DNA from: a virus
Taxonomy: Duplodnaviria > Heunggongvirae > Uroviricota > Caudoviricetes
DNA length: 5,694 nucleotides
Strand: one strand, 5' to 3'
IMG/VR virus record: IMGVR_UViG_3300018485_000013
Coordinates: 1 to 5,694 of that record
The notes beneath the pieces were generated by a model. The model did not search any database and was not told where the DNA came from. It saw nothing but the letters and a program-made list of their open reading frames with translations. A program made the translations under genes and the position numbers. Shown here piece after piece: positions 1 to 5,694 of this stretch (the stretch's first letter is position 1; the number at the start of each line of letters is the position of its first letter).

Positions 1-21
1 TACACGACGCTCTTCCGATCT
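1..21. other. Illumina TruSeq universal adapter 3' end (sequencing artefact, not biological sequence)
   Basis: Bases 1-21 (TACACGACGCTCTTCCGATCT) are identical to the last 21 nt of the TruSeq universal adapter as I recall it (...CTACACGACGCTCTTCCGATCT). They sit at the extreme 5' edge of the window. Confidence 0.85.
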
Positions 22-657
22 GGGATGCTGATCTGGCCCGACTTTACTGGCTGGGACACGGTGCTGAATGCCGAAGCAACGGCATATGCCACCGCCCGTG
101 CGCTTGGTCTGCGCGCCAAAATTGATGAGCAGACCGGATGGCACAAAAGCCTGTCCAACGTGGGCGTGAACGGTGTCACCGGAATTTCTGCTGATGTATT
201 CTGGGATCTGCAGGACCCGGCAACTGATGCGGGACTGCTTAACCAGAACGATGTTACCACACTTATCCGCAAAGACGGCTTTCGCTTCTGGGGTTCCCGC
301 TGTCTGAGTGATGACCCACTCTTTGCCTTTGAAAACTACACCCGCACGGCGCAGGTGCTGATGGACACGATGGCAGAAGCGCCAATGTGGGCGGTCGACA
401 AACCGCTGAATCCGTCGCTGGCCCGCGACATTATCGAAGGTATCCGCGCCAAAATGCGCAGCCTGATCAGTCAGGGCTATCTCATTGGTGGCGATTGCTG
501 GCTGGATGAGTCGGTGAACGACAAAGACACTCTGAAAGCTGGAAAACTCACCATCGACTACGACTACACACCAGTGCCGCCACTTGAAAACCTGATGCTG
601 CGTCAGCGCATCACCGATCAGTACCTGGTGAATTTCGCCAGCCAGGTCAGCGCGTAA
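1..657 (+). CDS. FI: Contractile tail sheath protein, P2 gpFI-like, C-terminal portion (5' partial, runs off the window start)
   Basis: Frame 1 is open from position 1 to the TAA at 655-657, so the first in-window ATG (25) is not the real start. The first 21 nt are adapter, so genuine coding sequence begins at about 22. The translated sequence (…[36 protein letters not shown]…) matches my recall of the P2 sheath C-terminal domain. The tail tube gene follows immediately, as in P2. Confidence 0.88.
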
Positions 658-666
658 GGGGACAAC

Positions 667-1182
667 ATGGCTTTACCACGCAAATTAAAACACCTGAACC
701 TGTTTAACGACGGGAACAACTGGCAGGGGATCGTTGAGTCGCTGACGCTGCCGAAATTCACCCGCAAATATGAGAAGTATCGCGGCGGCGGAATGCCGGG
801 AGCAGTGGATGTGGATCTGGGGCTTGATGACAGTGCGCTGGACACAGAATTTTCCATTGGTGGTACTGAACTGCTGCTGTTTAAGCAGATGGGCAAAGCC
901 ACGGTGGATGGCATCCAGTTGCGCTTTACCGGCTCTATCCAGCGTGATGATACCGGGGAAGTGCAGGCCGTGGAGCTTGTGGTGCGTGGACGTCACAAAG
1001 AAGTGGATTCCGGCGAGTGGAAGACGGGCGAAAGCAACACCACCAAAGTGACCAGTACCAACAGCTACGCGAAGCTGACTATCAATGGTGAGGTGCTCTA
1101 TGAAGTGGACCTTATCAACATGGTGGAAATTGTGGACGGTGTGGACCTGATGGAAGCGCACCGCAACGCCCTCGGCCTCTGA
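667..1182 (+). CDS. FII: Major tail tube protein, P2 gpFII-like
   Basis: 171-aa ORF beginning MALPRKLKHLNLFNDGNNWQGIVE…, which I recognise as the P2 FII tail tube family. A GGGGA Shine-Dalgarno at 658-662 lies 4 nt upstream of the ATG. It starts 9 nt after the sheath stop. Confidence 0.92.
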   Translation: MALPRKLKHLNLFNDGNNWQGIVESLTLPKFTRKYEKYRGGGMPGAVDVDLGLDDSALDTEFSIGGTELLLFKQMGKATVDGIQLRFTGSIQRDDTGEVQAVELVVRGRHKEVDSGEWKTGESNTTKVTSTNSYAKLTINGEVLYEVDLINMVEIVDGVDLMEAHRNALGL

Positions 1183-1193
1183 TGTATCTGAAC

Positions 1194-1211
1194 GGCGCGG
1201 AATGCCGCGCC
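1194..1211 (+). promoter_or_regulatory. GC-rich stem-loop in the FII-E intergenic region (possible mRNA stability element or partial attenuator)
   Basis: Seen in sequence: GGCGCGG (1194-1200) pairs with CCGCGCC (1205-1211) around a 4-nt loop AATG. There is no U-run after it (AGAACCUAAUUUACAGG), so it is not a canonical intrinsic terminator. Confidence 0.35.
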
Positions 1212-1236: not shown

Positions 1237-1539
1237 ATGAGCGATAAGCAGACTGAAAAGACTATTCAACTGGATACCCCCATCATGCGTGGTAAAACTG
1301 AAATCACCGAAATTGTGCTGCGTAAACCGCAGTCTGGTGCGCTGCGCGGTACACGCCTGCAGGCCATTATGGATATGGATGTGAACGCGATGATGACCGT
1401 GATCCCCCGCATCTCCAGCCCGGCGCTGACTGCACAGGAAATTGCAGAGATGGACCCGGCAGATCTCACTGCCATGTCGGTTGAGGTTGTCACTTTTTTG
1501 TTGAAGAAGTCGGTGCTTGCCGGTTTACCGACAGCCTGA
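1237..1539 (+). CDS. E: Tail assembly chaperone, P2 gpE-like (zero-frame product)
   Basis: 100-aa ORF (MSDKQTEKTIQLDTPIMRGK…) in the position upstream of the tape measure gene where the lambda G/GT and P2 E/E' chaperone sits. AGGA at 1226-1229 lies 7 nt upstream of the ATG. A slippery heptamer occurs near its 3' end. Confidence 0.85.
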   Translation: MSDKQTEKTIQLDTPIMRGKTEITEIVLRKPQSGALRGTRLQAIMDMDVNAMMTVIPRISSPALTAQEIAEMDPADLTAMSVEVVTFLLKKSVLAGLPTA

Positions 1540-1673
1540 CGGTTGATGATCTGGTGGCAGATATCGCCACCATTTTTCACTGGCCGCCATCCGTTACTGA
1601 CGTTATGCCGCTGACCGAAGTGCTGGAATGGCGGTATAAAGCGATTCAGAGAAGCGGGGCCAACGATGAGTGA
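1237..1673 (+). CDS. E+E': Tail assembly chaperone frameshift fusion, P2 gpE+E'-like (-1 shift at 1494-1500)
   Basis: Hand translation of the -1 frame from 1500 gives VEEVGACRFTDSLTVDDLVADIATIFHWPPSVTDVMPLTEVLEWRYKAIQRSGANDE, then stop TGA at 1671-1673, which overlaps the tape measure ATG at 1666. The predicted fusion is about 145 aa. This architecture is conserved in the tail chaperones of long-tailed phages. Confidence 0.68.
1494..1500 (+). promoter_or_regulatory. Putative -1 programmed ribosomal frameshift slippery heptamer T_TTT_TTG
   Basis: In the E frame the codons are ac-T TTT TTG. A -1 slip keeps two U-rich codons paired and then reads GTT GAA GAA…, which stays open for 57 codons to a TGA at 1671-1673. 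A T-rich heptamer at this position is the known E/E' frameshift arrangement in P2-like phages. Confidence 0.7.
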
Positions 1674-4600
1674 TAATAACCTGCGCCTGCAGGTCATTCT
1701 TAATGCGGTTGACAAACTCACCCGCCCATTCCGTGCTGCACAGGCCAGTTCGAAAGAGCTGGCTGGCGCAATCAGAAACTCCCGTGACGCATTAAAGCAA
1801 CTCAATCAGGCGGGTAACAGCCTGGAAAAATTTCGCAAGCTGCAGGCCGATAACAAAAAGTTAGGCGACAGGCTGAACTATGCCAGACAGAAGGCAAATT
1901 TGCTTAGTTCTGAGCTGGAAGCGATGGAACAACCATCACAAAGGCATCTTGTGGCTTTAGGTCGGCAAACGCTGGCAGTCCAACGCCTGGAAGAACAACA
2001 AAAATATTTGCAGAAGCAAACGGCGCTTGTGCGTGCAGAACTGTACCGGGCGGGAATTTCTGCGAAAGATGATGCGGGAGCAACTGCCCGTTTAGCCCGT
2101 GAAACATCACGTTATAACCAGGAACTTTCGAAACAAGAGGCGCGGCTGAAGCGACTGGGGGAAGCTCAGCGCAGGATGAATGCGGCGCGTGCCAGTTATG
2201 CCCGTTCGCTGGAGGTGCGTGATCGTATTGCAGGTGCCGGAGCCACCACCACGGCTGCAGGGCTGGCAATGGGCGCACCAGTGATGGCGGCAGTAAAAAG
2301 CTATACCAGCATGGAAGATGCCATGAAAGGTGTAGCAAAGCAGGTCAATGGTCTGCGTGACGATAATGGCAACCGCACTGCACGTTTTTATGAAATGCAG
2401 GATGCCATCAAGGCTGCCAGCGAACAGTTGCCGATGGAAAACGGTGCGGTGGACTTTGCCGCACTGGTTGAAGGTGGTGCGCGCATGAACGTCGCAAACC
2501 CTGACGACAGCTGGGAAGACCAGAAACGTGACCTGCTGGCCTTCGCCAGTACGGCAGCAAAGGCGGCAACAGCCTTTGAGCTGCCAGCGGATGAACTGTC
2601 AGAAAGTCTGGGGAAAATCGCCCAGCTCTACAAAATTCCCACCCGCAATATTGAACAGCTCGGTGATGCGCTGAACTATCTGGATGATAACGCCATGTCG
2701 AAAGGGGCAGACATCATTGATGTGATGCAACGTCTGGGCGGTGTGGCTGACCGTCTGGATTATCGTAAAGCGGCGGCGCTGGGTTCCACCTTCCTGACAC
2801 TGGGCGCTGCGCCGGAGGTTGCAGCCAGTGCAGCAAACGCGATGGTGCGTGAATTGTCCATTGCCACCATGCAGAGCAAGAGTTTCTTTGAAGGAATGAA
2901 TCTGCTGAAACTCAATCCTGAAGTGATTGAAAAGCAGATGACGAAGGATGCGATGGGAACTATCCAGCGTGTGCTGGAGAAGGTGAACGCACTGCCGCAG
3001 GACAAGCGTCTGTCTGCCATGACCATGATGTTTGGTAAAGAGTTTGGCGATGACGCGGCGAAACTGGCAAACAACCTGCCGGAACTACAGCGCCAGCTAA
3101 AACTGACTGCGGGCAATGATGCGCTCGGTTCCATGCAGAAAGAATCCGACATCAACAAAGACTCACTTTCTGCTCAGTGGTTGCTGGTCAAAACCGGAGC
3201 GCAGAACACCTTCAGCAGCCTGGGCGAAACGCTGCGCCAGCCGCTGATGGATATTCTGTACACGGTGAAAAGCATCAAGGGGGCGTTGCGCCGCTGGGTG
3301 GAAGCTAACCCGGAACTGACAGGCACACTGATGAAAGTAGCGGCTGTTATGGCTGCGGTTACCGTAGGCCTCGGCACCTTAGCGGTGGCGCTGGCTGCAG
3401 TGCTGGGGCCGCTGGCAGTCATCCGTCTGGGATTCTCTGTGCTGGGTATCAAAACGTTACCTTCCGTTACGGCAGCAGTAACACGAACCAGCAGCGCGTT
3501 GTCCTGGTTAGCTGGCGCTCCACTGGCACTGCTGCGACGCGGGCTTGCTTCATCGGGCAACGCAGCGGGTTTACTTACTGCGCCGTTGTCGTCTTTGCGC
3601 CGCACGGCATCACTGACGGGAAATGTCCTGAAAACTGTAGCAGGTGCGCCGGTTGCACTTTTGCAGTCTGGATTATCCGGTTTACGTGCTGTTGCTGTGA
3701 TGTTTATGAATCCTCTGGCGGTACTGCGCGGTGGACTGGCCGCCGCAGGCACGGTGCTGCGAGTACTGGCATCTGGTCCACTGGCGATGCTGCGCGTTGC
3801 CCTGTATGCCGTATCTGGTCTGTTAGGTACTCTGCTCAGTCCGATAGGTCTTGTGGTTACTGCACTGGCGGGCGTGGCGCTGGTTGTGTGGAAATACTGG
3901 CAACCCATCACCGCATTTCTTGGTGGCGTGGTGGAAGGATTCAAAGCGGCGGCAGGTCCCGTCAGTGCAGCATTCGAACCGCTTAAGCCCGTGTTCCAGT
4001 GGATTGGCGATAAAGTACAGGCGCTGTGGGGCTGGTTTACTGATCTGCTGACGCCCATTAAGTCGACCTCTGCCGAACTGCAGAGTGCAGCGGCAATGGG
4101 GCGGAGATTCGGGGAGGCACTGGCGGAAGGGCTGAATATGGTCATGCATCCGCTGGACTCCCTGAAATCCGGCGTTTCCTGGTTGCTGGAGAAGCTCGGC
4201 ATTGTCAGTAAAGAGGCCGCAAAGGCAAAACTGCCGGAAAGCGTGACGCGTCAGCAACCTGCGACGGTGAATGCAGACGGTAAAGTGATGATTCCATCGG
4301 GTGGTTTTCCGTCATGGGGATATGGCTTTGCGGGGATGTATGACAGCGGCGGGTATATCCCGCGCGGGCAGTTTGGCATCGTCGGTGAAAACGGGCCGGA
4401 AATTGTTAACGGCCCGGCAAATGTGGCCAGCCGGAGAAATACAGCTGCACTGGCTGCCGTTGTTGCCGGAATGATGGGCGTTGCTGCCGCGCCAGCAGAG
4501 CTTCCACCGTTGCACCCTTTGGCACTTCCCGCGAAAGGTGGAGAAGCAATTGTGAGTCGCGCAGCCACTGTGCCGCTCGTTCAACGGCTTGAGGCACCGA

Positions 4601-4743
4601 CGCAGATCATCATTCAGACGCAGCCAGGACAAAGTGCGCAGGATATTGCGCGGGAGGTGGCCCGCCAGCTTGATGAACGTGAACGCAGGCTGAAGGCAAA
4701 GGCCAGGAGTAACTACAGCGATCAGGGGGGATACGACGCATGA
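1666..4743 (+). CDS. T: Tail tape measure protein, P2 gpT-like, 1025 aa
   Basis: Very large ORF directly after E/E'. It has a charged, heptad-like N-terminal region (residues about 25-180, rich in Q/R/E/L/A, consistent with coiled coil), a hydrophobic Ala/Gly/Leu/Val-rich central region with degenerate tandem repeats, and a Gly-rich C-terminal region. The first ATG after the in-frame stop at 1612 is at 1666. GGGG at 1655-1658 is a plausible Shine-Dalgarno. Confidence 0.93.
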   Translation: MSDNNLRLQVILNAVDKLTRPFRAAQASSKELAGAIRNSRDALKQLNQAGNSLEKFRKLQADNKKLGDRLNYARQKANLLSSELEAMEQPSQRHLVALGRQTLAVQRLEEQQKYLQKQTALVRAELYRAGISAKDDAGATARLARETSRYNQELSKQEARLKRLGEAQRRMNAARASYARSLEVRDRIAGAGATTTAAGLAMGAPVMAAVKSYTSMEDAMKGVAKQVNGLRDDNGNRTARFYEMQDAIKAASEQLPMENGAVDFAALVEGGARMNVANPDDSWEDQKRDLLAFASTAAKAATAFELPADELSESLGKIAQLYKIPTRNIEQLGDALNYLDDNAMSKGADIIDVMQRLGGVADRLDYRKAAALGSTFLTLGAAPEVAASAANAMVRELSIATMQSKSFFEGMNLLKLNPEVIEKQMTKDAMGTIQRVLEKVNALPQDKRLSAMTMMFGKEFGDDAAKLANNLPELQRQLKLTAGNDALGSMQKESDINKDSLSAQWLLVKTGAQNTFSSLGETLRQPLMDILYTVKSIKGALRRWVEANPELTGTLMKVAAVMAAVTVGLGTLAVALAAVLGPLAVIRLGFSVLGIKTLPSVTAAVTRTSSALSWLAGAPLALLRRGLASSGNAAGLLTAPLSSLRRTASLTGNVLKTVAGAPVALLQSGLSGLRAVAVMFMNPLAVLRGGLAAAGTVLRVLASGPLAMLRVALYAVSGLLGTLLSPIGLVVTALAGVALVVWKYWQPITAFLGGVVEGFKAAAGPVSAAFEPLKPVFQWIGDKVQALWGWFTDLLTPIKSTSAELQSAAAMGRRFGEALAEGLNMVMHPLDSLKSGVSWLLEKLGIVSKEAAKAKLPESVTRQQPATVNADGKVMIPSGGFPSWGYGFAGMYDSGGYIPRGQFGIVGENGPEIVNGPANVASRRNTAALAAVVAGMMGVAAAPAELPPLHPLALPAKGGEAIVSRAATVPLVQRLEAPTQIIIQTQPGQSAQDIAREVARQLDERERRLKAKARSNYSDQGGYDA
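3505..3890 (+). repeat. Degenerate tandem repeats of about 21-22 aa (about 63-66 nt) within the tape measure gene
   Basis: The protein shows about six consecutive units with the pattern xxPLAxLRxGLxxxGxxL: LAGAPLALLRRGLASSGNAAGLL / TAPLSSLRRTASLTGNVLKTV / AGAPVALLQSGLSGLRAVAVMFM / NPLAVLRGGLAAAGTVLRVLA / SGPLAMLRVALYAVSGLLGTLL / SPIGLVVTALAGVALVVW. The nucleotide copies are diverged (for example CCACTGGCACTGCTGCGACGCGGGCTT versus CCTCTGGCGGTACTGCGCGGTGGACTG), so the boundaries are approximate. Confidence 0.5.
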
Positions 4744-5225
4744 TGATGGTGCTGGGATTGTACGTGTTTATGCTTCGCACTGTGCCGTATCAGGAACTGC
4801 AGTATCAACGCAGCTGGCGACATGCGGCAAACAGCCGGGTAAACCGTCGTCCGTCCACGCAGTTTCTGGGACCGGAAAACGACATGCTGACGCTTTCCGG
4901 TGTTCTTATGCCGGAGATAACAGGCGGCAGGCTGTCGTTGCTGGCACTGGAGCAGATGGCAGAACAGGGGAAAGCATGGCCCCTGATTGAAGGCAGCGGC
5001 ACGATTTACGGCATGTATGTGATTGAGGGACTGAATCAGACTAAAACGGAGTTTTTCCGCGACGGTATGCCGCGCAGGATTGAGTTCACCCTTTCGCTAA
5101 AACGGGTGGATGAATCCCTGTCCGATATGTTCGGTGATCTCAGTACTCAACTGAATAATCTGCAGGACACGGCAACGTCTGTCTTAAGCGATATCAGTAA
5201 AACGGTGGGAGGGCTGCTGTCGTGA
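4740..5225 (+). CDS. U: Tail protein U, P2 gpU-like
   Basis: 161-aa ORF (MMMVLGLYVFMLRTVPYQELQYQRSWRHAANSRVNRRP…) that I recognise as the phage P2 GpU family. Its ATG overlaps the tape measure stop in ATGA (4740-4743). AGGGGGGA at 4722-4729 is a Shine-Dalgarno. Position after T matches P2 order. Confidence 0.9.
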   Translation: MMMVLGLYVFMLRTVPYQELQYQRSWRHAANSRVNRRPSTQFLGPENDMLTLSGVLMPEITGGRLSLLALEQMAEQGKAWPLIEGSGTIYGMYVIEGLNQTKTEFFRDGMPRRIEFTLSLKRVDESLSDMFGDLSTQLNNLQDTATSVLSDISKTVGGLLS

Positions 5226-5694
5226 ATTTCAGCTCTGAACTGCTTAACAAAGGCAACAAAACTCCCGCATTCAGCATCAGTATTGAGGGCAGGGATATCA
5301 CCACTGTGCTGGATAACCGCCTGATGAGTTTGACGCTGACGGATAACCGGGGCTTTGAAGCGGACCAGCTTGATCTGGAGCTGGATGACGCTGACGGAAA
5401 AATCGTGCTGCCGCGCCGTGGTGCGGTTATTACGCTGGCGCTGGGCTGGAAGGGGCAGCCGCTTTTCCCGAAAGGGGCATTCACAGTGGACGAGATTGAA
5501 CACACTGGCGCACCGGACCGCCTGACTATCCGGGCGCGAAGTGCTGATTTTCGGGAAACGCTGAATACCCGCCGTGAAAAATCGTGGCATAAGACCACCG
5601 TCGGGGAAGTGGTGAAGGAAATAGCCGCGCGGCACAAGCTGAAGATGGCACTGGGTAAAGACCTGTCGGATAAGCCCGTGGAGCATATAGACCA
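5222..5694 (+). CDS. D: Tail protein D, P2 gpD-like (late control D family), N-terminal portion (3' partial, runs off the window end)
   Basis: Frame 2 is open from the TAA at 5198-5200 to the window end. It is absent from the supplied ORF track, probably because it has no ATG start and no stop within the window. The only plausible start is GTG at 5222, overlapping the U stop in GTGA, with GGGAGGG at 5207-5213 eight nt upstream. Translation (V/M)NFSSELLNKGNKTPAFSISIEGRDITTVLDNRLMSLTLTDNRGFEADQLDLELDDADGKIVLPRRGAVITLALGWKGQPLF… matches my recall of the gpD family. Confidence 0.82.
   Translation, partial: MNFSSELLNKGNKTPAFSISIEGRDITTVLDNRLMSLTLTDNRGFEADQLDLELDDADGKIVLPRRGAVITLALGWKGQPLFPKGAFTVDEIEHTGAPDRLTIRARSADFRETLNTRREKSWHKTTVGEVVKEIAARHKLKMALGKDLSDKPVEHID

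What the first reader, a model, noticed from the sequence alone, without database searches (positions are those of the whole stretch)
1490..1673. Programmed -1 frameshift site producing an E+E' chaperone fusion that ends inside the tape measure start
The slippery heptamer T_TTT_TTG (1494-1500) lies 13 codons before the E stop. The -1 frame is open for exactly 57 codons and ends at TGA 1671-1673, overlapping the tape measure ATG (1666) by 8 nt. This is the conserved two-product chaperone arrangement of long-tailed phages (lambda G/GT, P2 E/E'). An automated pipeline would call only the 100-aa E ORF and miss the fusion.
Basis: partly seen in the sequence, partly recalled or inferred. Interest (0 to 1): 0.45.

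Follow-up and report, generated by a model that had tools for sequence, protein, structure and literature searches.

The report
P2-type tail chaperone frameshift site
This is the well-known programmed -1 frameshift site of a P2/Fels-2-like prophage, which makes two tail-assembly chaperones (E and the longer E+E') from one start codon. It is correctly spotted but ordinary, and common in E. coli genomes.

Summary
E is 1237-1539 (100 aa). The in-frame heptamer T_TTT_TTG lies at 1494-1500, 13 codons before the E stop. The -1 frame then runs 57 codons to TGA 1671-1673 and overlaps the tape-measure ATG (1666) by 8 nt.

- The -1 extension matches Pfam PF06528 (Phage_P2_GpE) over the full model at 68 bits.
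- It is 56% identical, without gaps and of equal length, to P2 E'.
- The hand-made fusion aligns without gaps across the junction to the annotated P2 E+E' (48%, E=5e-50).
- P2 has the same heptamer and the same 8-nt overlap with T.
- Gene order is FI-FII-E/E'-T-U-D.
- In 81 of 81 loci (the window, P2 and 79 relatives at 36-98% identity, from gamma-, beta- and alphaproteobacteria) an in-frame TTTTTTN is followed by a 53-76 codon -1 ORF.
- All 38 diverse extensions tested hit PF06528.
- No downstream RNA structure is supported, as reported for P2.

One correction: pipelines such as PGAP do not miss E' entirely. They call it as a separate, probably artefactual 39-aa ORF from GTG 1554, and never annotate the fusion. 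The feature is already known and of low interest.

The parts
1237..1539 (+). Gene E, the zero-frame product: a 100-aa tail assembly chaperone
   Evidence: ORF. Pfam PF10109 Phage_TAC_7 at 66.4 bits, PHROG 103 'tail' at 149 bits. Annotated 'phage tail assembly protein' at the same coordinates in the 99%-identical E. coli STEC005 locus. 42% identical to P2 gpE.
1494..1500 (+). Slippery heptamer T_TTT_TTG, phased as (AC)T TTT TTG in the E frame
   Evidence: The same heptamer sits at the homologous position in P2, where the record annotates a -1 frameshift site. An in-frame TTTTTTN is present in 81 of 81 loci: 72 with G, 8 with A, 1 with C. The preceding codon always ends in T although its amino acid varies (G/T/S/V/I/Y).
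1500..1673 (+). E' extension in the -1 frame: 57 codons plus TGA, with no start of its own needed
   Evidence: PF06528 Phage_P2_GpE at 67.9 bits, full model 1-37 of 37. PHROG 1756 and 6416. 56% identical to P2 E', gapless. All 38 homologous extensions hit PF06528.
1237..1673 (+). Predicted E+E' fusion, join(1237..1500,1500..1673), 145 aa, junction ...VVTFL|VEEVG...
   Evidence: BLASTP against P2 E+E': 67 of 139 identical, no gaps, E=5e-50, aligned straight across the junction. P2 E+E' is 142 aa.
1666..1673 (+). 8-nt overlap ATGAGTGA between the E' stop and the tape-measure start
   Evidence: The same 8-nt overlap occurs in P2 and in 43 of the 74 loci where the T start could be placed.
1666..4743 (+). 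Gene T, tail tape measure protein (1025 aa)
   Evidence: TIGR01760 at 306.7 bits, PF10145, PGAP annotation.
667..1182 (+). Gene FII, tail tube protein, upstream neighbour
   Evidence: PF04985 Phage_tube at 201.7 bits; annotation.
22..657 (+). 3' part of gene FI, tail sheath, truncated at the window start
   Evidence: PF17482 and PF04984. The annotated sheath CDS continues upstream in L001.
4740..5225 (+). Gene U, P2 GpU-like tail protein; ATGA overlap with T
   Evidence: PF06995 at 150 bits; annotation.
5222..5694 (+). 5' part of gene D (late control D family), which runs off the window
   Evidence: Annotation of the 99%-identical locus L001; GTG 5222 overlaps the U stop.

Best explanation
The window carries the FI-FII-E/E'-T-U-D tail operon of a P2-like (Fels-2/Felsduovirus-type) prophage. 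Most ribosomes translating E (1237-1539) terminate normally and make the 100-aa chaperone E.

A minority slip at (AC)U UUU UUG. The proposed steps are these. With tRNA-Phe on UUU (1495-1497) in the P site and tRNA-Leu on UUG (1498-1500) in the A site, both tRNAs slip back one base onto UUU UUU (1494-1499). Reading then resumes at GUU (1500). A further 57 codons are translated, ending at UGA 1671-1673, 8 nt inside gene T. The product is a 145-aa E+E' with junction ...VVTFL-VEEVG....

By analogy with P2 E/E+E' and lambda G/GT, both proteins would share the N-terminal domain that coats the tape measure protein. The rarer E' domain would recruit the tail tube. The fixed frameshift rate would set the ratio of the two products, and neither protein would end up in the virion.

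Shown here: the anatomy, the homology of both frames, the synteny, and nucleotide-level conservation of the slip site. Inferred: that slippage happens, its rate, the tRNA mechanism, and the binding partners.
For: (1) Anatomy is exact.

(2) Both reading frames encode the expected domains. PF10109 (E) scores 66 bits. PF06528 (E') scores 68 bits in the -1 frame, over the full model. The matching PHROG tail families are hit as well.

(3) The fusion aligns gaplessly across the junction with the curated P2 E+E' (48%, E=5e-50). E' alone is 56% identical and of equal length. The P2 record annotates the join, the frameshift site and the same 8-nt overlap with T.

(4) Gene order is sheath, tube, E/E', tape measure, U, D.

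(5) Comparative data. The loci were found with peptide patterns that lie far from the slip site. All 79 genome loci, plus the window and P2, have an in-frame TTTTTTN and a -1 ORF of 53-76 codons. The constraint acts on nucleotides. The codon before Phe encodes G/T/S/V/I/Y but always ends in T, against a background third-position T of 15%. Phe is always TTT (background 57%). The third codon is TTG or TTA (Leu) in all loci but one, which has TTC (Phe); TTR makes up 11% of Leu codons in the background. The product of the three backgrounds is 0.009.

(6) 38 of 38 diverse extensions hit PF06528. Conserved residues (V15 and the D16/D17 positions) lie upstream of the annotated GTG/ATG 'start' of E'.

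(7) There is no SD-like motif before GTG 1554. Only 3 of 72 loci have one before any candidate internal start.

(8) Literature. In P2, -1 frameshifting at TTTTTTG gives the 91-aa E and the 142-aa E+E', with no downstream hairpin (PMC3091744). P2 E' lacks a ribosome-binding site and overlaps T (PMC3931495). [quoted passage not shown] The Fels-2 RefSeq record notes the slippage for the 86%-identical locus.
Against: - There is no experimental evidence for this particular sequence.
- The heptamer alone occurs at chance frequency in the window.
- No stimulatory RNA structure is supported. The window z-scores are -1.8 and -1.0. Across 72 loci the mean z is -0.14 and none falls below -2. There is no Rfam match. 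The efficiency therefore rests on the heptamer alone.
- A start-capable codon (ATG or GTG) sits at the same E' position in most homologues (34 of 38 by my reading of the alignment). Independent initiation is therefore not formally excluded.
- The 81 loci are phylogenetically related, so the counts are not independent events.
- The primary P2 paper (Christie et al. 2002) could not be read here. It is cited only through secondary sources.
Confidence: 0.93

Rival explanations
1. E' is a separate small gene, as PGAP and several phage records annotate it. On this view a 39-aa 'GpE family phage tail protein' is initiated at GTG 1554, and no fusion is made.
For: RefSeq annotates exactly this ORF, and SEN8 does likewise. 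The 39-aa sequence is counted on 994 contigs. A start-capable codon (ATG or GTG) occupies this position in most homologues (34 of 38 by my reading of the alignment). The Pfam PF06528 model begins at this residue.
Against: - No SD-like motif lies upstream of GTG 1554, and only 3 of 72 loci have one before any candidate internal start.
- 4 of 38 homologues have Y, A, F or Q at that position (my reading of the alignment).
- Conserved residues (V15, D16, D17) lie upstream of the supposed start.
- The -1 frame is open from the heptamer onward in 81 of 81 loci, and the heptamer is conserved at the nucleotide level. A separate gene would not explain either fact.
- P2 E' is reported to lack a ribosome-binding site and to be expressed as E+E'.
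- The Pfam boundary probably reflects the annotated short ORFs used to build the model (my inference).
Confidence: 0.03
2. The same E+E' fusion is made by RNA polymerase slippage on the T6 run, not by ribosomal slippage. One extra U would be inserted into a fraction of transcripts.
For: The site is a homopolymer run. Xanthomonas and Stenotrophomonas P2-like phages carry longer T7G or T7C runs. No mRNA stimulator of ribosomal slippage was found. The sequence data here cannot separate the two mechanisms.
Against: - The literature describes the P2 event as a translational frameshift.
- From general knowledge, a run of six is shorter than the runs of about 8-9 or more that are typically needed for efficient transcriptional slippage in bacteria.
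- The run is always phased as X_XXY_YYZ relative to the E frame in 81 of 81 loci. Ribosomal tandem slippage needs that phasing; polymerase slippage does not.
Confidence: 0.04
3. It is a chance co-occurrence of a T-rich heptamer and an open -1 frame, with no biological role.
For: TTTTTTG occurs once against 1.15 expected. From 13.9% of codon positions the -1 frame stays open for at least 57 codons.
Against: The -1 frame encodes a Pfam domain at 68 bits. It is conserved in 38 of 38 diverse relatives. The heptamer is present in 81 of 81 loci. P2 has an identical architecture.
Confidence: 0.003

Closest known systems
Bacteriophage P2 genes E and E+E' (NC_001895, P2p26/P2p25; Christie et al. 2002, as cited in PMC3091744 and PMC3931495)
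   Same: - Same heptamer T_TTT_TTG in the same phase and at the homologous residue (G/T-F-L).
- Same 57-aa -1 extension, 56% identical.
- Same 8-nt overlap with the T start (ATGAGTGA here, ATGAGTAA in P2).
- Same position between FII and T.
- Same Pfam families in both frames.
- No downstream hairpin in either.
   Different: - E is 100 aa here and 91 aa in P2. The zero-frame tail after the slip is 12 aa (LKKSVLAGLPTA) here and 6 aa (SPNSVQ) in P2, so the slip lies 13 codons before the stop rather than 7.
- Overall identity is only 48%.
- T is 1025 aa here and 815 aa in P2.
- T and U overlap here (ATGA), whereas in P2 they are separated by 14 nt.
Fels-2 / Felsduovirus (Salmonella) STM2699-STM2697.1; also SEN8, RE2010, Escherichia phage Cartapus and Klebsiella phage 4LV2017
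   Same: These are the nearest clade, at 86-98% nucleotide identity across 1180-1720. E is 90-91% identical at the protein level to Fels-2 and SEN8. E is 100 aa with the same 13-codon spacing. The Fels-2 RefSeq note states that gpE+E' forms by translational slippage.
   Different: There are only point differences. The records split E' off as a separate CDS instead of a join.
Phage lambda G/GT tail assembly chaperones (Levin et al. 1993; Xu et al. 2004, 2013, 2014, as summarised in PMC5009743)
   Same: The logic is the same. Two products share one start. A -1 slip occurs near the end of the gene that lies between the major tail gene and the tape measure gene. The ratio of products is fixed. The short form binds the tape measure protein and the extension recruits the tube subunit.
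   Different: - The heptamer differs (lambda uses G_GGA_AAG; my knowledge).
- Detectable sequence similarity to lambda G/T was not tested here and is not expected.
- Lambda has a non-contractile tail.
- P2-type efficiency is reported as 2-3 fold higher.
E. coli dnaX -1 frameshift (A_AAA_AAG with an upstream SD-like element and a downstream hairpin)
   Same: Both are tandem -1 slippage on an X_XXY_YYZ heptamer that yields two products from one gene (my knowledge; PMC5009743).
   Different: The dnaX stimulators are not evident here. No downstream structure was found. The only SD-like element is GAGG at 1483-1486, 7 nt upstream. It is present in 33 of 72 relatives, plus one with a motif further upstream at -16, and is absent from P2.

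Membership tests
P2-type gpE / gpE+E' frameshifted tail assembly chaperone | The N-terminal (zero-frame) product is homologous to P2 gpE (Pfam PF10109 Phage_TAC_7) | tested here: met
   66.4 bits against a cut-off of 25, model positions 1-78 of 79; 42% identical to P2 gpE.
P2-type gpE / gpE+E' frameshifted tail assembly chaperone | The -1 frame extension is homologous to P2 E' (Pfam PF06528 Phage_P2_GpE) | tested here: met
   67.9 bits against a cut-off of 23, model positions 1-37 of 37; 56% identity, gapless, E=8e-24 against P2 E'.
P2-type gpE / gpE+E' frameshifted tail assembly chaperone | An in-frame T_TTT_TTG slippery heptamer lies near the 3' end of E, at the position homologous to the P2 site | tested here: met
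   The heptamer is at 1494-1500, phased (AC)T TTT TTG. It aligns with the P2 heptamer in a gapless alignment. An in-frame TTTTTTN occurs in 81 of 81 loci.
P2-type gpE / gpE+E' frameshifted tail assembly chaperone | Located between the tail tube gene (FII) and the tape measure gene (T) in an FI-FII-E-T-U-D operon | tested here: met
   Pfam and NCBIfam assignments of all neighbours and the RefSeq annotation of the 99%-identical locus.
P2-type gpE / gpE+E' frameshifted tail assembly chaperone | E' has no ribosome-binding site of its own and ends overlapping the start of T | tested here: met
   No SD-like motif lies before GTG 1554. The overlap is 8 nt, as in P2.
P2-type gpE / gpE+E' frameshifted tail assembly chaperone | No downstream stimulatory RNA structure, as reported for P2 | tested here: met
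   Window z-scores are -1.84 and -1.05. Across 72 loci the mean z is -0.14, with none below -2. No Rfam match. Absence of evidence only.
P2-type gpE / gpE+E' frameshifted tail assembly chaperone | The E+E' fusion protein is actually produced by -1 frameshifting at a defined rate | not testable with these tools
   Needs a reporter assay, western blot or mass spectrometry. Inferred from homology to P2.
P2-type gpE / gpE+E' frameshifted tail assembly chaperone | Both products are essential for tail assembly and absent from virions | not testable with these tools
   Needs genetics and virion proteomics. The P2 record labels both 'essential tail protein'.
Lambda G/GT-type conserved tail chaperone frameshift (Xu, Hendrix and Duda 2004 arrangement) | Two overlapping ORFs between the major tail gene and the tape measure gene, joined by a slippery sequence near the end of the first ORF | tested here: met
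Lambda G/GT-type conserved tail chaperone frameshift (Xu, Hendrix and Duda 2004 arrangement) | Sequence homology to lambda gpG/gpT | not tested
   Not compared. The arrangement, not the sequence, defines this class.

The most novel reading that the evidence does not exclude
In the Fels-2-like clade, which includes this window, the SD-like GAGG at 1483-1486 lies 7 nt upstream of the heptamer. It is present in 33 of 72 relatives, plus one with a motif further upstream at -16, and is absent from P2. It might pair with the anti-SD of the translating ribosome and tune the E:E+E' ratio differently from P2. That would be a clade-specific, dnaX-like upstream modulator of a tail-chaperone frameshift that otherwise has no known stimulator. 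The motif may equally be a by-product of the conserved E-V dipeptide.
Probability: 0.07. Interest if true: 0.25.

Novelty: already known. Interest (0 to 1): 0.08.

Why it matters
This adds little biology. The P2 E/E+E' frameshift was described in 2002, and it is explicitly noted in the RefSeq record of Fels-2, which is 86% identical here.

The practical value lies in annotation. Relatives of the window occur in 1140 of 5426 complete E. coli genomes. In the best-matching RefSeq genome the locus is annotated as E plus a 39-aa 'GpE family phage tail protein' with a probably artefactual GTG start. The real 145-aa product is missing from a collection of about 15 billion proteins. A rule could fix this systematically: find an in-frame TTTTTTN near the end of a PF10109 ORF, followed by PF06528 in the -1 frame. 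The 81-of-81 conservation without any RNA stimulator is also a clean data set for studying frameshifting that depends on the heptamer alone.

Tried and rejected
- Downstream stimulatory hairpin or pseudoknot. Folding 1501-1600 and 1470-1560 gave z-scores of -1.84 and -1.05. Across 72 relatives the mean z was -0.14 and none fell below -2. Rejected.
- Rfam scan of 1100-1800 at E<=1 found nothing.
- Terminator-like hairpin plus T5 at 1552-1577 as a stimulator. It lies 52 nt from the slip and is present in only 35 of 72 loci. It is probably a by-product of the conserved ADIAxIFHW codons. Rejected as part of the mechanism.
- Comparing conservation of the two frames in the short overlap just after the slip. 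It was uninformative, with identities of 0.33-0.38 in both frames. The conserved E' domain lies downstream of the E stop.
- Viral-contig scan with E. The 80 loci returned were 98-100% identical and useless for conservation. They were replaced by the genome-contig scan seeded with an alignment.
- NCBIfam has no model that hits E or E'.
- No solved structure of any relative in the PDB by sequence, at E<=1.
- The primary P2 paper (Christie et al. 2002) is not held. Secondary citations were used instead.
- One script hung on an unbounded loop and was rerun.

Full report
**Observation**

The window was read directly and re-derived by script.
- E runs from ATG 1237 to TGA 1537-1539 and is 100 aa.
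- The zero-frame codons at the site are ACT (1492), TTT (1495) and TTG (1498). TTTTTTG at 1494-1500 is therefore a correctly phased X_XXY_YYZ heptamer.
- Its TTG codon lies 13 codons before the E stop.
- From base 1500 the -1 frame reads VEEVGACRFTDSLTVDDLVADIATIFHWPPSVTDVMPLTEVLEWRYKAIQRSGANDE, 57 codons, and stops at TGA 1671-1673.
- The 1025-aa ORF that follows starts at ATG 1666, giving the 8-nt overlap ATGAGTGA.
- The -1 frame is closed 5 codons upstream of the slip (TGA 1482-1484).

Every number in the finding is right. The motif alone is not beyond chance. TTTTTTG occurs once against 1.15 expected in shuffles. The window's genes hold 7 in-frame slippery heptamers in 1672 codons. The -1 frame stays open for at least 57 codons from 13.9% of codon positions. 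The case therefore rests on homology and conservation.

**What it is**

Pfam assigns the neighbours as follows: tail sheath (25-657, truncated), tail tube FII (667-1182, 201.7 bits), tape measure (1666-4743) and GpU (4740-5225, 150 bits). NCBIfam TIGR01760 also hits the tape measure at 306.7 bits. E hits PF10109 Phage_TAC_7 at 66.4 bits. The -1 frame extension hits PF06528 Phage_P2_GpE at 67.9 bits over the whole model. PHROG tail families 103, 1756 and 6416 agree.

The locus is 99.0% identical to a prophage in E. coli STEC005. Relatives occur in 1140 of 5426 complete E. coli genomes. Among phages it is 96.7-98.3% identical to Klebsiella and Escherichia peduoviruses and 86% identical to Fels-2.

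**Direct test against P2**

The P2 record annotates E (91 aa), E+E' as a two-piece join, a 'site of -1 translational frameshift', and T starting 8 nt before the end of E+E'. P2 carries the same TTTTTTG in the same phase.

The window's hand-built fusion aligns with P2 E+E' at 67 of 139 identical residues with no gaps, E=5e-50, and the alignment runs straight through the junction. The extensions alone are both 57 aa and 56% identical, E=8e-24. The opposite was found.

**Comparative evidence**

An alignment of four E proteins was used to scan one genome per species. The peptide patterns lay far from the slip site. The scan returned 79 loci at 36-98% identity from Enterobacterales, Pseudomonas/Stutzerimonas, Halomonadaceae, Burkholderia, Ralstonia, Methylotenera, Sphingopyxis and others.

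Including the window and P2, 81 of 81 loci have an in-frame TTTTTTN near the end of E (72 G, 8 A, 1 C). Each is followed by a -1 ORF of 53-76 codons. The most common overlap with the next long ORF is 8 nt, in 43 of the 74 loci where it could be determined.

The constraint is on nucleotides, not only on protein.
- The residue before Phe is G, T, S, V, I or Y, but its codon always ends in T. The background for third-position T is 15%.
- Phe is always TTT (background 57%).
- The third codon is TTG or TTA (Leu) in all loci but one, which has TTC (Phe). TTR makes up 11% of Leu codons in the background.
- The joint background is 0.009.

The loci are related, so these are not independent trials. Six different preceding codons all ending in T is nonetheless telling. 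Thirty-eight diverse extensions were aligned and all 38 hit PF06528. Nearly invariant residues include V15, which lies upstream of the GTG/ATG that gene callers use as the E' start.

**Mechanism**

No stimulatory RNA structure is supported. The window folds give z-scores of -1.84 and -1.05. The 60 nt downstream in 72 loci give a mean z of -0.14, with none below -2. Rfam finds nothing. This matches published statements that P2 and Burkholderia P2-like phages lack a hairpin there (PMC3091744).

The most likely mechanism is therefore heptamer-only tandem -1 slippage of tRNA-Phe (P site) and tRNA-Leu (A site). This is an inference from the standard simultaneous-slippage model. The function is taken by analogy. 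In lambda, G and GT bind the tape measure protein, the T domain recruits the tube subunit, and the ratio of about 30:1 is crucial. P2-type efficiency is reported as 2-3 fold higher (PMC5009743). P2 E' lacks a ribosome-binding site and overlaps T (PMC3931495).

**Rivals**

(a) Independent initiation of a 39-aa E' at GTG 1554, as PGAP annotates it.
- For: a start-capable codon (ATG or GTG) sits at this position in most homologues, 34 of 38 by my reading of the alignment.
- Against: there is no SD-like motif, and only 3 of 72 loci have one before any candidate start. Four of 38 homologues lack a start codon there. Conservation extends upstream of it. The model explains neither the heptamer nor the open frame back to it.

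(b) Transcriptional slippage on the T6 run would give the same frames. The strict X_XXY_YYZ phasing in 81 of 81 loci and the literature favour the ribosome. Only the junction residue (Leu or Phe) or cDNA sequencing would settle it.

(c) Chance is excluded.

**Annotation point**

SEN8 and Fels-2 likewise split E' off, although Fels-2 notes the slippage. The exact E and 39-aa sequences are counted on 1000 (the counting limit) and 994 contigs. The exact 145-aa fusion is absent from the collection of about 15 billion proteins. The fusion is indeed systematically unannotated.

**Verdict**

This is a correct and careful observation of an already-known feature, the P2-family E/E+E' programmed -1 frameshift in a Fels-2-like prophage. 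Every membership feature that could be tested computationally is met. Only the wet-lab features remain untested: production of the fusion, its rate, and its essentiality. It is not novel, and interest is low (0.08). The residual novelty is a speculative clade-specific SD-like GAGG 7 nt upstream of the heptamer.

Noticed in passing
window 1-21: The first 21 bases, TACACGACGCTCTTCCGATCT, are the 3' end of the Illumina TruSeq read-1 adapter (my knowledge). Every listed E. coli match starts at query base 22. The contig end is untrimmed adapter, and the ATG at 25 is not the real start of the sheath gene, which continues upstream in L001.
   Followed up: partly
window 1194-1211 (FII-E intergenic region): There is a GC-rich hairpin, GGCGCGG-aatg-CCGCGCC, with no T-run after it (z -2.14). 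Hairpins of quite different sequence sit at the same place in diverse P2-like loci, including P2 itself (mean z -1.66; 27 of 72 below -2). It looks like a conserved structure. It could be an attenuator or an mRNA-stability element between the abundant sheath and tube genes and the low-level E/T/U/D genes.
   Followed up: partly
window 4725-4731: An in-frame G_GGG_GGA lies 4 codons before the T stop. The -1 frame there is the U frame and stays open for 164 codons, so a slip would give a T-U fusion. The Gly-Gly GGG GGR run is kept in Yersinia, Salmonella and Klebsiella relatives at 75-82% identity. In two of them the X position is A, and P2 lacks the run altogether. It is probably a coincidence.
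   Followed up: partly
window 1552-1577: A terminator-like hairpin plus T5, TGGTGGCAGATATCGCCACCA TTTTT, lies inside the E' coding sequence, 52 nt after the slip. A comparable hairpin with a T-run occurs in 35 of 72 relatives. It covers the most conserved E' motif (ADIAxIFHW) and may be a by-product of those codons.
   Followed up: partly
window 1554-1673: The Pfam PF06528 model (37 positions) begins exactly at the residue encoded by GTG 1554, which is the annotated 'start' of the 39-aa GpE ORF. Conserved E' residues (V15, D16, D17) lie upstream of it. The family model probably inherits an artefactual N-terminus from split annotations.
   Followed up: partly
window 1483-1486: An SD-like GAGG lies 7 nt upstream of the heptamer. 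It is present at about the same offset in 33 of 72 relatives, plus one with a motif further upstream at -16, and is absent from P2. It could be a modulator of frameshifting, or just the E-V codons.
   Followed up: no
window 1666-4743, 4740-4743 and 5222-5225: The tape measure protein is 1025 aa, against 815 aa in P2, which would imply a longer tail if length scales with T. T/U and U/D overlap by 4 nt (ATGA and GTGA), whereas P2 T and U are separated by 14 nt.
   Followed up: no
L142, L149 (Vagococcus sp. WN89Y) and L158 (Chryseobacterium sp. 18061): P2-type E/E' loci with the enterobacterial-type extension appear in assemblies labelled as a Firmicute and a Bacteroidete. This is likely contamination of those assemblies rather than host range.
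   Followed up: no
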